Source: Octopus vulgaris
Taxonomy: Eukaryota
Assembly (NCBI GenBank): GCA_951406725.2
Contig: OX597816.1
Span: forward strand, 27,900,001-27,964,000
Reading direction: 5' to 3'
DNA: 64,000 bases
Shown: positions 2,710 through 61,401 of the stretch, in pieces
How the letters are laid out: every line of letters begins with the position of its first letter
How positions within the stretch are numbered: the stretch's first letter is position 1
The notes under the pieces: generated by a model
Database searches by the model: none
The model's input: only the letters and a program-made list of their open reading frames with translations
Told to the model about the DNA's origin: nothing
Made by a program: the position numbers and the translations under genes

Positions 2710-5229
2710 GAAAAATAGCTACACACACACACAACATATTTGCAAAAAAAGAACAACAAACAAGAAATTGAAATAATTATATGTGCGTATGTGTTTGTAT
2801 GCGTGTGTTTGTGTATGTGTGTTTGCGTATGGTGTGTGTTGTATATATACATATAAAGAGATACTAATATAAACATCATAACTTAGAGGATGACAATGAG
2901 AAATTAAGCGACAAATACATAGTAAATGGTTTCGAGAATAGAGAGGAGGAAGAGAGAGAGAGAGAGAGAGAGCGAGAGCGAGAGAGAAAGTGAGAGAGTG
3001 AGTCAGAGAAATGTTAACAAATGTGCGAAGAGAAATGTCGGACGAGACTATAAACTAGAATTGCTGATTCCACATCATCTGGGATTGGTGACACATAACA
3101 ATTGAACAATTGAAAAAATTAAGGATTAAGACTAGAGACAACAGTCTGGGATGCATACGAATGAATGATTATCTTAATAAATGGCAGAGTTTATTGCAAG
3201 CATTTGTTAAGGGAGACAGCAATAATTCATGCGTTACATTATAAATATATTAAACTGAATTATCTTCCGTTTAAACTATTCCCTTTCAATTCCCACAGCC
3301 ATTAGAGTAGTAGTGGCATTCCTTTAAATATCTGCGTCTCTATCATGGTTTCTGATTTATGTGACTCTGTCTGTCTGTCTCTCTGTCAGTCAAACTTTCT
3401 GTCTGTCTGTCTGTCCGTCTCTCTTTCTCTCTCTCTCTCTCTCTCCTTCTATATATATATATATAAATATATATAGGGAGAGTTTACGAAAAAACAACAA
3501 AAGACGAAGACAAGTGGTGTACAAAACAAACAGATGTATTAGTATAACACTCAGGAATAGAAAAAGTCTTATACGTTTCGAGCCTACGCTCTTCTACAGA
3601 AAGGGACACAGGAAAAACAAGGAGAGAAATAAGGAGTGAAAAAAAGGAGAGAAAAAAGGAAAGAAAAAAGGAGAGAGAAAAAAGCGCGTGTGTGTGTAAT
3701 AACACACATACACACATATGTATATCTTATAATAATTCTTCTTGTCATTGCGTTACTTAGCCCGTCGGTAACTCTTTCGCGTGATTAGTTGAAGCGACAG
3801 AGAGAAGACAGAAAAAGGAGAGGAGAAATAGGATAAGGAGTGAGACAGAGAGAGCGAGTAAGAGAAATAAAAAGAGGGAGAGAGAAGCGTCCATGACGTG
3901 AGGTAGGGGGAACCTAATATTTATTGCCTGGTTAAAAAAGGTTAGTTGAAGATAGAGGAGGAGAATTGAAGATATAATTTTAACAGAGGGGCGATATTTT
4001 GATGGTGAGGTTAAGGAAAGGCAGAGAGACGGAGTGAGTAAAGAGAGATGATGGAGGAAGAGAGGAAAGAGAAAACTAAAGGGGAGAGAGGGGAAGAAAG
4101 AGAAGATGGAGAGAGATAGGAGAGGGACAATGGAGAGAGAGGGGAGAGAGAAAGAGAGAGGAGAGATGATGATGGTGGTGGTAGAGATGGAGTGGGTGGA
4201 GATGGAGGTGGTGATGGTGGTGGTGTTGATTAGATAGTGAAAGCTATTCTTTTCTTAAACTAAGTCTTTGTATATCCCTTATCACTTAACGCATGCGCAT
4301 AAGTGCAACTCCGTGAAATATTCACGCTAATGTACGTGGCAGATATATGCAATTTAATTAAACGTTGTATCATATGTATATTGATTTTGCTTATGGGGAA
4401 ATTGGGAAAATAAGAGTGAATATTTATTTGGTGAGTGCTGTGTATAATTCTATAAAATTGTGCATAACGTATATAATGTGTATATATAAAGTGCATTAAG
4501 TAATCATCGTATTCCAATTTCTTTCACTTTTCAATGAGTAGCAGATGAAAAACCATCTTTCCATACAGACATGACACGAAGATGCTGGCCTTTCCGCAAA
4601 CTTGAAATCAATATTATGAAAAATAGCTACACACACACACAACATATTTGCAAAAAAAGAACAACAAACAAGAAATTGAAATAATTATATGTGCGTATGT
4701 GTTTGTATGCGTGTGTTTGTGTATGTGTGTTTGCGTATGGTGTGTGTTGTATATATACATATAAAGAGATACTAATATAAGATGGAGAGAGAGGGGAGAG
4801 AGAAAGAGAGAGGAGAGATGATGATGGTGGTGGTAGAGATGGAGTGGGTGGAGATGGAGGTGGTGATGGTGGTGGTGTTGATTAAATAGTGAAAGCTATT
4901 CTTTTCTTAAACTAAGTCTTTGTATATCCCTTATCACTTAACGCATGCGCATAAGTGCAACTCCGTGAAATATTCACGCTAATGTACGTGGCAGATATAT
5001 GCAATTTAATTAAACGTTGTATCATATGTATATTGATTTTGCTTATGGGGAAATTGGGAAAATAAGAGTGAATATTTATTTGGTGAGTGCTGTGTATAAT
5101 TCTATAAAATTGTGCATAACGTATATAATGTGTATATATAAAGTGCATTAAGTAATCATCGTATTCCAATTTCTTTCACTTTTCAATGAGTAGCAGATGA
5201 AAAACCATCTTTCCATACAGACATGACAC
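2666..5229. repeat. Complex local duplication: A(2666-2872)...B(4130-4577) A'(4574-4780) B'(4782-5229)
   Basis: Direct comparison; identical 85-aa ORFs at 4260 and 4912 (offset 652); only one mismatch noticed in B. Confidence 0.95.
3475..3700 (-). mobile_element. Short (TA)n-anchored PLE-derived element, family H1, with minimal hammerhead-like motif (3569-3602)
   Basis: Reverse complement reads ttt CTGTAGA a gagc gtag gctc GAAA cg TA; homologous to 29636, 41111, 50241. Confidence 0.8.
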
Positions 5230-29635: not shown

Positions 29636-29790
29636 ATACATTTTTCTCTCCTTGTTTCTTTCTGTTTTCCTGTAGAAGAGCGTAGGCTCCAAACGTAAAA
29701 GACTTTTTCAATTCCTGAGCGTTATACTAATACATGTTTGTTTTCTACACCACTTGTCTTCGTCTTTTGTTTTTTTCGTAAATTTTCCCT
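29636..29790 (+). mobile_element. Family H1 element
   Basis: CTGTAGA a gagc gtag gctc caaa cg ta (G12 mutated); ends ttccct before (TA)n. Confidence 0.8.
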
Positions 29791-29800
29791 ATATATATAC

Positions 29801-41076: not shown

Positions 41077-41110
<34 letters not shown>

Positions 41111-41114
<4 letters not shown>

Positions 41115-41314
41115 AGAGTTTACGAAAAAAACAAAAGACGAAGACAGGTAGTGTACCAAACAAAGAGATGTATTAGTATGATACATCTCTTTGTATCATA
41201 CTCAGGAATTGAAAAAATCTTTAACGTTTCGAGCCTATGCACTTCTAAAGAAAGGGACACAGAAAAAACAAGAAGAGAAAAAATGTGTGTAGTGGCTAAC
41301 GATCTATCATGGCG
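41111..41314 (-). mobile_element. Family H1 element in (TA)n
   Basis: Reverse complement of 50241-50448; HHR-like motif mutated. Confidence 0.85.
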
Positions 41315-41364: not shown

Positions 41365-41505
41365 TCAAATATATAAGGAATGCCCATATTAGGACATTCC
41401 TTATATATTTGAATGTATATTATATAGTCTATTGACTAACTTCTGTTTCTCACTTGACCCCTGGTAGCGGAGAATTTTTCTAGAATTTTTGCTACCCTTA
41501 AATTT
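41359..41505. other. TA-embedded fold-back insert with two hairpins
   Basis: attcaaatatataaggaatg..cattccttatatatttgaat (41359-41418) and ggtagc..gctacc (41463-41496). Confidence 0.7.
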
Positions 41506-41526
41506 ATATATATATATATATATATA

Positions 41527-41748
41527 TGACAACTATGATTGTCACACGCTGACGAGAGGTCAATACCTCGAAACTCGAGTCCGTGTGTATCATAAGTTGA
41601 AGACGGGAAGGATGACTTCCCTTTGCAAATACTGACAGGACACAGATAGTGTGTCTATGGCCAGCTGGAGGAGTGTGTCCTCCTGGGGCTAAAAACTACA
41701 GTAGCATCCACCCTTAGGGGTTAGCCATATTGAAATGGCAAAAATACG

Positions 41749-41752
<4 letters not shown>
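41527..41752 (+). mobile_element. Retrozyme-like insert of about 226 bp in (TA)n
   Basis: Bounded by (TA)n on both sides; canonical HHR near the 5' end; further hairpins gggaag/cttccc, gacac/gtgtc, ggagga/tcctcc, gccat/atggc. Confidence 0.8.
41530..41599 (+). ncRNA. Canonical type I hammerhead ribozyme
   Basis: cacacg CUGACGA gaggt-caat-acctc GAAA ctcgag UC cgtgtg; predicted GUC cleavage after 41581; stem I extended by caactatgat/atcataagttg. Confidence 0.92.
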
Positions 41753-41798
<46 letters not shown>

Positions 41799-42112
41799 AA
41801 GGGCTTCTTTCAATTTCCGTGTACCAGATTCACTCACAAGGATATAATATAAAACACTTGCTCAAGGTGCCACGGAGTAGGGCTGAACCCGGATCCATGT
41901 GGTTGGGAAGCAAGCGTCTTACGACATAACCACGTCTGCGACTATATTTAATCTTTGTTTTTTCATTCTAAATCGTTAACGATTAATAGTGGAGAACAGA
42001 GAAAAATGTCCTTCGCGACGGTCTGAATGACTTTCCAGGGTTTTTAATCTATTATTATTTGGATTTTTTGTACAAGGTTAAGAGTTCTGTTGGTATTATA
42101 AACCTGTGCATT

Positions 42113-42512
42113 GGCGCAGGAGTGGCTGTGTGGTAAGTAGCTTGCTCACCAACCACATGGTTCGGGGTTCAGTCCCACTGCGTGGCACCTTGGGCATGTG
42201 TCTTCTACTATGGCCTCGCCCCGACCAAAGCCTTGTGAATGGATTTGGTAGACGGAAACTGAAAGAAGCCCGTCGTATATATGTATATATAGGTGTGTGT
42301 GTTTGTGTGTGTGCGTTTGTCCCCCCAACATCGCTTGGCAACCGATGCTGGTGTGTTTATGTCTCCGTAACTTAGCGGTTCGGCAAAAGAGCCCGATAGA
42401 ATAAGTACTAGGCTTCCAAAGAATAAGTCCTGGGGGGCGATTTCCTCGACTAAATGCGGTGCTCCAGCATGGCCGCAGTCAAATGGCTGAAACAAGTAAA
42501 AGAGTAAAAGAG
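42113..42512 (+). mobile_element. SINE family B, full length and young
   Basis: A box, B box, accttgggc core and aagtaaaagagtaaaagag tail all intact. Confidence 0.93.
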
Positions 42513-44535: not shown

Positions 44536-44621
<86 letters not shown>

Positions 44622-45030
44622 AGGCACGTGGCTTAGTGGTTAGGGTGTCAGCATCATGATTATAAGATTGTGGTTTCGATTCCTGGACCGGGCGACGCGT
44701 TGTGTTCTTGAGCAAAACACATCATTTCACGTTTCTCCAGTCCACGCAGCTGGCAAAAAATGAGTATACACACACACACACACACACATATATGGAGGCA
44801 CGTGGCTTAGGGGTTAGGGTGTCAGCATCATGATCGTAAGATTGTGGTTTCGATTCCTGGACCGAGCGACGCATTGTATTCTTGAGCAAAACACTTCATT
44901 TCAAGTTGCTCCAGTCAATTCAGCTGGCAAAAATGAGTAACGCTGCGATGGACTGGCGTCATACACCATAGAAACCGGGAAACCGAGCCCATGAGCCTGG
45001 CTAGGCTTTAAAAGGGCGCATTTATTTATT
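44364..45030 (+). mobile_element. Three tandem copies of tRNA-derived SINE family E (44364-44509, 44620-44766, 44794-45030)
   Basis: A box tggcttagtgg, B box ggtttcgattcc, core gtgttcttgagcaaaacactt. Confidence 0.88.
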
Positions 45031-50240: not shown

Positions 50241-50448
50241 TGACGCCATGATAGATCGTTAGCCACTACACACATTTTTTTTCTCTCCTTGTTTCGCTCC
50301 TTGTTTTTTCTGTGTCCCTTTCTGTAGAAGAGCGTAGGCTCGAAACGTAAAAGACTTTTTCTATTCCTGAGCGTTATACTAATACATCTGTTTGTTTTGT
50401 ACATCACCTGTCTTCATGTTTTGTTGTTTTTTTTCGTAAACCCTCCCT
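50241..50448 (+). mobile_element. Family H1 element in (TA)n, best-preserved copy; HHR-like motif 50319-50352
   Basis: ttt CTGTAGA a gagc-gtag-gctc GAAA cg TA aaa. Confidence 0.85.
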
Positions 50449-51314
50449 ATATATACATACATACATATTTGGGTGTGCGTACGTGTGTGCACGTCTGTGT
50501 ATATATGTGTGTGTGCACGTGTGTGCATGTGACTTCGTGTCTTCTCCCACCGGATGACTAACTGATATCTTAGCCTGGGAAAAGTTTACCAATAGAATAA
50601 GTACTAGAATTAAAAATATGTACTGGGGGTGAATTATTTCGAGTAAACCTTTCATGGTGCTCCAACATAACCACCATCTAATGATTGCTTCAATCATTAG
50701 TTAGCAGTTATAAATTATTACTAATTGTTTCACTGACCCTGGAGGCGTAAAGGAATAATATAACTTAGGAACTGAAAAGTAAAAGCCTTAATGCTACAGT
50801 TTCTCTGTAGTCTAAGATTAAACCACTCATATTCGACTTTGCTTTTCACCCATTTCGATGTCAAGAAACAATGTACCCCTAACATAATGAGGATCGACTT
50901 AATTTACTCATCCCTGTCCCATCTTAATGTTTGACTGGCTCTAATGTGAGAAAAAGATAAATGCAAATCGTGTAGGTGGATTCCTATACTAGAAATATCT
51001 GTATTTAAAATATTCCTGTTGCTTACGTATCTCTCACATATTCAACCTTGTTCCGACGCGAGAAACAATATTCAGCCAGAAGCCATGAAGGAGTCTCTAC
51101 ATGAACAATAGGCTTGATAGAAAAATAAATCGCCTGTTATTATGGATGTTTATTTAGGGAAGTTAGCCCGGAGGCCATTCAAGAGCAACAAAAATAATGG
51201 CAATGATACAATCTTGCCCTTCTATGAACTACGATGACGGAAAGTTATATTTCGGTAGAAGTATTAGTTGTAGTAGTAGTGTGAGTGATAGTGGTGGTGA
51301 TTTTCGTTTTCCAT

Positions 51315-60630: not shown

Positions 60631-60738
60631 ACCTGGACCCACATGATTGATATTTTTAAATGCTATAGGTAGAACGATGGTTATAATGATAATCACAGTG
60701 GTTATGGAGATGACATAACGTAAGCACGTTATATATAT

Positions 60739-61401
60739 ATCGACCGCACTACCGCCCTGTCTCCTTCCACCCGCCCACCCCCCAACCGCACCCCCTTCCC
60801 CCTCCTCTTCCACCCCTCTACGCTACCCCTTCGTCGCAAGATACTACGTGCCTTCCGTCGCCTCCAGCTTGATCCCACCACCCGCCCCATTTTCCCTAAC
60901 CCACCCCCGTCCTCTTTCAAACGAACCCGCAATCTGCGTGACCTCATGGTCCACAGCACCCTCTCTCCTTCCCCCTCAGCCCCACACGGATCATTCCCTT
61001 GCTCTAGATCCCGCTGCAACACTTGCCCCTTCATCACCAACACCACCGCTGTCACCGGCTCCAACCAGCATACTGTACGCATTAGGCACTCTTTTACGTG
61101 CACCTCGTCTGGCCTTATTTACTGCATTAAATGCAACCTATGCGGGATGCTGTATGTAGGACAGACGGGACGCCGGTTGTCCGACCGTTTCACTGAACAT
61201 TTGAGGGACGTTCGCCTACACTCTTTTTCTCCCGTCGCACGCCACTTCCGCTCGGCCGGCCATTCCCTAGATGACATCTCAGTGTTTGGTCTCGCCCCCC
61301 ACAATGGTCGCCCACTTTCCAGGCTCCACTTGGAGCAACGCTACATCTTCACCCTACAAACTACCACCCCACACGGACTTAACACAGCCCCCTCCTCTTG
61401 A
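60739..61401 (+). CDS. C-terminal part of a Penelope-like element (Neptune-type) ORF: linker, Cys-rich motif and GIY-YIG endonuclease; 5'-truncated, open without stops
   Basis: IDRTTAL..RTPFPLLFHP..LQLDPTTRPIFPNPP.SSFKRTRNLRDLMVHS; CSRSRCNTCPF..FTC; LIYCIKCNLCGMLYVGQTGRRLSDRFTEH..PVARHF..LEQRYIFTLQTTTPHGLN. Confidence 0.92.
   Translation: MDRTTALSPSTRPPPNRTPFPLLFHPSTLPLRRKILRAFRRLQLDPTTRPIFPNPPPSSFKRTRNLRDLMVHSTLSPSPSAPHGSFPCSRSRCNTCPFITNTTAVTGSNQHTVRIRHSFTCTSSGLIYCIKCNLCGMLYVGQTGRRLSDRFTEHLRDVRLHSFSPVARHFRSAGHSLDDISVFGLAPHNGRPLSRLHLEQRYIFTLQTTTPHGLNTAPSS

What the first reader, a model, noticed from the sequence alone, without database searches (positions are those of the whole stretch)
41527..41752. 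Textbook hammerhead ribozyme in a 226-bp retrozyme-sized insert
Seen: perfect 6-bp stem I, CUGACGA, 5-bp stem II with a CAAU loop, GAAA, palindromic CUCGAG stem III and GUC. An internal loop in the extended stem I is placed where loop II-stem I tertiary contacts occur in natural type I HHRs. The rest folds into several hairpins. This is the best candidate for an active ribozyme in the window.
Basis: partly seen in the sequence, partly recalled or inferred. Interest (0 to 1): 0.85.

Follow-up and report, generated by a model that had tools for sequence, protein, structure and literature searches.

The report
Truncated copy of a hammerhead retrozyme
This is a real-looking self-cutting RNA motif inside a shortened copy of a small, recently active jumping repeat of a kind already known in animals, and its copies show unusually clearly how a Penelope-type enzyme pastes such repeats into AT microsatellites.

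Summary
The hammerhead is there as described (Rfam RF00163, E 3.3e-6, 1.8 bits under the cut-off). The "226-bp insert" is not the unit. It is a 225-bp, 5'-truncated copy of a 353-bp tandem monomer with 439 exact cores in this 2.8-Gb animal genome: a new family of the known non-LTR retrozymes. Cleavage and circular RNA are inferred, not shown.

The insertion anatomy is the informative part. Copies sit in (TA)n and end at two fixed internal sites, 171-174 (S1) and 216-220 (S2) nt past the cleavage site. Of 44 head-to-head insertions, 37 pair S1 with S2; none pair S1/S1 or S2/S2. Arms run up to six units through the cleavage site, and both arms nearly always share variants. An autonomous Neptune-type Penelope-like element here shows the same two-site pattern.

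This fits published internal priming by Penelope-like reverse transcriptases and supports mobilisation from one, probably circular, RNA. The partner enzyme was not identified. The window copy has one ribozyme and is probably a dead end. The scan noted a similar TA-inserted repeat, with a tRNA instead, in another genome.

The parts
41528..41752 (+). 5'-truncated copy (225 of 353 bp) of retrozyme family A; circular coordinates c300 to c171, c1 = first base after the cleavage site (41582)
   Evidence: 100% identical to the other 40 best genome matches; tandem period 353
41530..41599 (+). Type I hammerhead ribozyme with extended stem I
   Evidence: RF00163 E 3.3e-6 at 41543-41587; compensatory changes across families A, B, C
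41549..41555 (+). Catalytic core, first box (C3 to A9)
   Evidence: sequence; positions 3 and 8 read C/G in A, U/G in B, U/A in C
41556..41569 (+). Stem II (4 bp) with 6-nt loop 2; last A of the loop invariant in A, B, C
41570..41581 (+). GAAA, two-pair stem III with palindromic tetraloop, GUC; predicted cleavage after 41581
   Evidence: loops UCGA, UAUA, CUAG in A, B, C are all palindromic; self-duplex -12.1 kcal/mol
41582..41752 (+). Hairpin-rich domain upstream of reverse-transcription start S1, conserved in sister families; inferred enzyme-recognition region
   Evidence: function inferred from PMC11167929
41749..41752 (+). 3' end at fixed site S1 (c171), the inferred internal priming site
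   Evidence: 70 of 123 outer 3' ends lie at c170-175 (junction detail)
41505..41527 (.). Left (TA)n target flank
   Evidence: 67 of 82 loci have (TA)4 or more on both sides
41753..41796 (.). Right (TA)22 target flank

Best explanation
A young non-autonomous Penelope-type retroelement (non-LTR retrozyme). Tandem copies elsewhere are transcribed (inferred). The hammerheads cut the transcript into 353-nt units, probably helped by dimer pairing of the palindromic stem III, and a host ligase circularises them (inferred from published retrozymes). A Penelope-like RT/GIY-YIG protein binds the conserved hairpin domain, nicks both strands of a (TA)n tract, and primes one strand at S1 and the other at S2, 46 nt further on. 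It copies round the template for a variable length, and the cDNAs are joined at short microhomologies. Shown: copy anatomy, fixed ends, strict S1/S2 pairing, read-through of the cleavage site, shared variants. Inferred: cleavage, circles, enzyme identity. The window copy is a single S1 arm that stopped after 225 nt.
For: 353-bp tandem units, 1-6 hammerheads per arm, dispersed over many contigs. 67 of 82 loci flanked by TA on both sides. Simple insertions end at S1 in 29 of 35. Head-to-head insertions pair S1 with S2 in 37 of 44 and S1/S1 or S2/S2 in 0; the other 7 have one non-canonical end; the pairing is 26 of 26 without the loci picked for 100% identity. Seven more S1+S2 loci among 20 drawn by the S1 junction. 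The same two sites are homologous in sister families B and C. An autonomous Neptune-type element with a 784-aa frame ends at two sites about 34 nt apart in 46 of 49 tallied end rows (some loci overlap), paired one of each. Two internal start sites define the PLE tail in vitro (PMC11167929, main text read). 161 passages through the cleavage site; 5' ends within c351-c5 in 2 of 123, 2.8 expected. Opposite arms carry the same allele at c66 in 36 of 36 loci, c162 43 of 43, c298 27 of 27, c153 42 of 42; 17 private substitutions are present in every copy of their locus, several across both arms. One insertion joins a retrozyme arm head-to-head to a Neptune arm without TA between (L188).
Against: No cleavage assay and no direct sign of a circular RNA. 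The canonical partner was not found: the Neptune-type families seen have no tail (X: 28 end rows at one site) or tails of about 33-34 nt (Y; Z and W read by eye), not 46, and none shares terminal sequence with the retrozyme. In the one chimeric insertion the retrozyme arm ends at c274, not S1. At c253 the arms differ in 2 of 20 loci. Among 16 S1 arms drawn without core bias, one starts at c3 and one near c7, against about 0.4 expected. In Anolis, uncleaved RNA was the main in vitro substrate and ribozyme mutants still inserted (PMC11167929).
Confidence: 0.72

Rival explanations
1. Same Penelope-type enzyme and same two priming sites, but the template is an uncleaved linear multimer transcribed from a tandem array; the ribozyme is slow or irrelevant to mobility.
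For: The active fold is disfavoured in the monomer. Ribozyme mutants of the Anolis element still inserted in vitro (PMC11167929). A homogeneous parent array would also give homogeneous daughters.
Against: Arms reach 2122 nt, and 2740 nt in one insertion, longer than most arrays sampled (28 of 82 have two or more ribozymes in tandem, 4 of 82 have four or more). No pair of loci shares more than one single-unit variant (13 pairs share one each), a weak test on a partial sample. The ribozyme fold is kept with compensatory changes across families.
Confidence: 0.2
2. The arrays arose by local tandem amplification (unequal crossover) of a solitary PLE terminal repeat, a scenario discussed in the 2026 preprint.
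For: Units within a locus are homogeneous; the preprint finds pLTR similarity for 21 of 57 Xenopus families.
Against: Arrays are non-integer, with random 5' ends, fixed 3' ends and inverted arms that share private variants; they are dispersed and under 1% divergent. Crossover does not explain the strict S1/S2 pairing.
Confidence: 0.05
3. A LINE or other non-PLE enzyme mobilises it by ordinary twin priming.
For: 5' truncation and inversion are also LINE features (established knowledge).
Against: No poly(A) or simple-repeat tail belongs to the unit; the second arm starts at a fixed site, not a random one; the same pattern is seen in autonomous PLEs of this genome.
Confidence: 0.03

Closest known systems
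Metazoan non-LTR retrozymes (coral, mussel, axolotl; Cervera and de la Pena 2020, PMC7229834; passages and Discussion read)
   Same: Canonical type I hammerhead in a short tandem monomer (353 bp, within 170-400), GC 42%, no long reading frame, highly paired predicted circle (z -7.7 for the linear monomer).
   Different: New sequence family. Copies are very young, in short dispersed arrays inside (TA)n, with fixed internal 3' ends and head-to-head arms; the text I saw proposes PLE mobilisation but gives no such insertion anatomy. Circles were shown there, not here.
Retrozymes as non-autonomous PLE derivatives (Li, Clavereau, Pollet 2026, bioRxiv 10.64898/2026.07.22.740005; parts 1-3 of 5 read, supplements closed)
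   Same: Co-occurrence with Neptune-type PLEs; tandem hammerhead units.
   Different: Their evidence is co-distribution and pLTR similarity; here it is the insertion signature, and no homologous pLTR was found.
Poseidon element of Anolis, internal priming at two sites (Frangieh et al. 2024, PMC11167929; main text read)
   Same: Two internal start sites downstream of the hammerhead, AT-rich target, both strands extended, tail between the sites.
   Different: There the element is autonomous, the tail is described as 30-40 bp, and no strand difference in start site was seen in vitro; here the spacing is 46 nt and each two-armed insertion uses one site per strand.
Neptune/Naiad PLE insertion structure (Craig et al. 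2021, PMC8557442; passages read)
   Same: 5' truncation, partial tandems, inverted 5' copy, tail at one end, (TA)n preference.
   Different: Those encode RT and endonuclease; Naiads lack canonical hammerheads.

Membership tests
Type I hammerhead ribozyme | Conserved core (CUGANGA, GAAA, UH) at a three-helix junction with open stem I | tested here: met
Type I hammerhead ribozyme | Rfam RF00163 gathering score 34 bits | tested here: not met
   32.2 bits, E 3.3e-6; a near miss on a curation threshold, not a structural defect
Type I hammerhead ribozyme | Helices kept by compensatory change | tested here: met
   7 of 21 pairs change on both sides, 96.8% of cells paired, slid controls 22-46%; only 3 families, 6 rows; mostly the extended stem I
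Type I hammerhead ribozyme | Loop 2 / stem I tertiary contact | tested here: inconclusive
   U after stem I and last A of loop 2 invariant; their role is recalled, not tested
Type I hammerhead ribozyme | Self-cleavage in Mg2+ | not testable with these tools
   needs transcription assay
Non-LTR retrozyme | Tandem monomer of about 170-400 bp with one type I hammerhead per unit | tested here: met
   353 bp; 28 of 82 loci carry two or more in tandem; the window copy carries one
Non-LTR retrozyme | Non-coding, GC under 45-50% | tested here: met
   GC 0.425; no frame of 110 aa or more covers 41528-41752
Non-LTR retrozyme | No LTR, PBS or PPT organisation | tested here: met
   arrays are partial tandems with random 5' ends, not LTR-bounded; PBS and PPT not searched separately
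Non-LTR retrozyme | Expressed as linear and circular monomer RNA | not testable with these tools
   only contigs of runs not on record as RNA were offered
Penelope-like element (autonomous) | ORF with RT and GIY-YIG | tested here: not met
   the unit is 353 bp and non-coding; it works like a PLE passenger but is not an autonomous PLE
PLE-mobilised element | Partial tandems, inverted 5' copy, tail at one end, microsatellite target | tested here: met
PLE-mobilised element | Terminal homology to an autonomous PLE | tested here: inconclusive
   none among five Neptune-type families sampled; the PLE survey is incomplete

The most novel reading that the evidence does not exclude
Each insertion is made by one Penelope-type RT dimer on one ribozyme-made RNA circle: one subunit primes the first target strand at S1, the other primes the second strand at S2, and both roll round the same circle. 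The strict one-of-each pairing and shared private variants would be direct genomic evidence for the rolling-circle life cycle proposed for animal retrozymes, and would explain the PLE 'tail at one end'. The partner may be a PLE lineage with a 46-nt tail not yet sampled here.
Probability: 0.45. Interest if true: 0.65.

Novelty: new member of a known kind. Interest (0 to 1): 0.42.

Why it matters
The ribozyme itself is ordinary: animal genomes hold thousands. What helps is that this family is young (0.9% mean divergence) and short, so whole insertions can be read. The papers read here leave open which enzyme moves animal retrozymes and whether the template is a circle. This family offers a 353-nt defined substrate with two predicted start sites and several active candidate enzymes in the same genome, which makes both questions testable in the published in vitro PLE assay. 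I found no report of this insertion anatomy for retrozymes in six paper searches; subscription papers, Repbase entries and the preprint's supplements were not visible.

Tried and rejected
Expression: no RNA holder listed. Four runs laid as contigs all cover the unit and show a joint going back 353, which tandem DNA gives as well as a circle; no inference drawn.

Partner search. Neptune-type family X (4485-bp unit, 1092-aa frame, at least 91 copies identical over 119 aa) was set aside: one end site only, no shared sequence. Families Y and Z have the two-site pattern but about 34-nt spacing. Locus L243 first looked like a PLE ending in retrozyme sequence (81%); reading it showed a separate TA-embedded insertion 600 bp beyond the PLE end, so it was rejected. 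A profile search of the loci then held found only Neptune-like fragments.

Lower substitution rate in the core (3 of 1685 vs 223 of 40543) is not used as evidence of selection, because loci were drawn by an exact core match.

Genome-wide junction counts are inflated on the reverse strand by repeated matches; only forward counts (278 for S1, 66 for S2) are quoted, and the two patterns cover different subfamilies, so their ratio is not used.

The other Rfam hits (miRNA families) lie on the TA run and are artefacts. A DNA transposon (MITE) reading from the short TGAC/GTCA ends was dropped: the left end is a random truncation point. Earlier-findings look-up by sequence gave nothing. The host species was not determined; the repeat landscape recalls an octopus (recalled, untested).

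Rows left out of the 82-locus tally: L038 (mirror duplicate of L033), overlapping cuts of the same insertion, L104 merged into L098, L105 duplicate of L072.

Full report
Observation. The window is animal DNA rich in microsatellites, from a 2.8-Gb assembly. At 41543-41587 lies a complete type I hammerhead: 6-bp stem I, CUGACGA, stem II, GAAA, a two-pair stem III with palindromic loop, and GUC with the cut after 41581. Rfam finds nothing at gathering score but gives RF00163 at 32.2 of 34 bits, E 3.3e-6. A descriptor with pairing rules hit 0 of 200 shuffled windows. The catalytic fold is not the lowest-energy fold of the monomer, as expected for a weak stem III.

What the unit is. A genome search returned 40 further full-length matches at 100% identity, often 353 bp apart or facing each other. 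The missing 128 bp lie between tandem copies. The unit is a 353-bp monomer, GC 42%, that folds into a branched structure at z = -7.7. There are 439 exact 33-base cores and 467 exact copies of a 3' motif. The S1-TA junction occurs 278 times on the forward strand, so about 550 insertions if older subfamilies are counted (the doubling is my estimate). The window copy covers c300 to c171, counting from the cut. It has one ribozyme; 28 of 82 sampled loci have two or more in tandem.

Conservation. Sister families B (about 351 bp) and C (about 355 bp), a diverged family D and older A subfamilies were found. Across A, B and C the hammerhead helices are 96.8% paired, with 7 of 21 pairs changed on both sides; slid controls give 22-46% (six rows from three families, so few independent events). 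Core positions 3 and 8 read C/G, U/G and U/A, and the stem III loop stays palindromic in all three. That favours cleavage helped by dimer pairing, as described for metazoan hammerheads (PMC4209133 and PMC7229834, passages).

Insertion anatomy. I mapped 82 loci: 63 drawn by exact core or 3' motif on contigs 1-4 (the window included) and 19 drawn for 100% identity. 67 have TA runs on both sides. Of 35 single-arm insertions, 29 end at S1 (c170-175), 2 at S2 (c215-221) and 4 elsewhere. Of 44 head-to-head insertions, 37 have one S1 and one S2 end, none has two of a kind, and 7 have one other end; 3 loci are complex. Independent choice would give 37 of 37 mixed with probability about 7e-12, or 1.5e-8 for the 26 not picked for identity. 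Twenty further loci drawn by the S1 junction gave 7 more S1+S2 pairs. B and C end at the homologous two positions. Two insertions outside TA show a direct repeat of about 11 bp by eye (L077, L093), which suggests staggered nicks.

Template. Arms are 53 to 2122 nt and pass the cleavage site 161 times. Their 5' ends are spread round the unit: 2 of 123 lie within c351-c5, against 2.8 expected. Core-based sampling misses arms that stop at c1, so I checked arms drawn by the 3' end. None of the four core-less loci starts at c1 (nearest c7 and c349). Of 16 visible starts, one is at c3 and one near c7. Cut linear monomers are thus not the main template, though a minor share is not excluded. Family-level variants are present in all copies of a locus in 61 of 69 cases; opposite arms agree at c66 in 36 of 36 loci but differ at c253 in 2 of 20; 17 private substitutions are in every copy of their locus, 119 in one copy only. 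This fits one RNA, or one source locus, per insertion. A circle explains it most simply; an uncleaved multimer is not excluded.

Enzyme. The pattern matches Penelope-like elements: partial tandems, an inverted 5' copy, a tail at one end and TA targets (PMC8557442, passages), and two internal start sites that define the tail in vitro (PMC11167929). The genome holds several Neptune-type families, judged by the cysteine motif between RT and GIY-YIG; X, Y and Z have many identical copies. Family Y shows the same one-of-each pairing with sites about 34 nt apart. One locus joins a Y arm head-to-head to a retrozyme arm, which there ends at c274; this suggests that a Y-type enzyme can copy this RNA, on one case. 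No family with a 46-nt tail or shared terminal sequence was found, and one apparent match was a separate insertion. The partner stays open.

Mechanism and odds. Best reading (0.72): tandem transcript, ribozyme cut, ligation to a circle, two-site target-primed copying by a PLE protein. Rivals: uncleaved linear multimer as template (0.2), local amplification by crossover (0.05), a LINE enzyme (0.03). Anatomy is shown; cleavage, circles and enzyme are inferred.

Known versus new. It meets the testable features of metazoan non-LTR retrozymes (PMC7229834), and a 2026 preprint already ties these to PLEs. It is a new member of a known kind. The added value is the quantified insertion signature, which six searches did not find in print for retrozymes; supplements of the preprint were closed and may bear on this. 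An unchecked note of this scan describes a TA-inserted tandem repeat with a tRNA in another genome, with a similar PLE-like pattern; I saw it after forming my reading and did not test it. Interest 0.42.

Noticed in passing
window 41376-41506 (+): Fragment of another TA-inserted tandem family (E, period about 449 bp) that carries a hammerhead with a long stem II and palindromic stem III in fuller copies. It abuts the finding across one TA run.
   Followed up: partly
window 41103-41263 (-), also 3466-3611 (-), 29645-29798 (+), 50309-50455 (+): Old 3' remnants (72-78%) of Neptune-type family X, with a minimal hammerhead-like motif. Three PLE-type insertions thus share one TA cluster at 41.1-41.8 kb.
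   Followed up: partly
window 60724-61398 (+): Endonuclease end of a further Neptune-type element, 59% to family X.
   Followed up: no
L153:2024-6508; L231: Apparently active autonomous PLEs: X (4485-bp unit, 1092-aa open frame, single 3' end with TA-like microhomology) and Y (about 4.4-kb unit, 784-aa frame, two ends); Z has a 781-aa frame in many identical copies.
   Followed up: partly
L188:6050-8500 (G000:C17): Chimeric insertion: a 5'-truncated family Y arm joined head-to-head with 1.9 units of the retrozyme, no TA between.
   Followed up: partly
L106-L125, L165, L243, L250-L269: Sister retrozyme families B, C, D and older A subfamilies with core variants (U at position 3, C at position 4, mismatch at the base of stem II); activity unknown.
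   Followed up: partly
L032/L033 and L037/L038 (G000:C1, about 1 Mb apart): The same insertion with the same flanks in mirror orientation: a segmental duplication or an assembly duplicate.
   Followed up: no
window 42112-42500 and 44614-44939: SINE-like dispersed repeats, one as a 174-bp tandem pair; similar sequence flanks many fetched loci. Label by appearance only.
   Followed up: no
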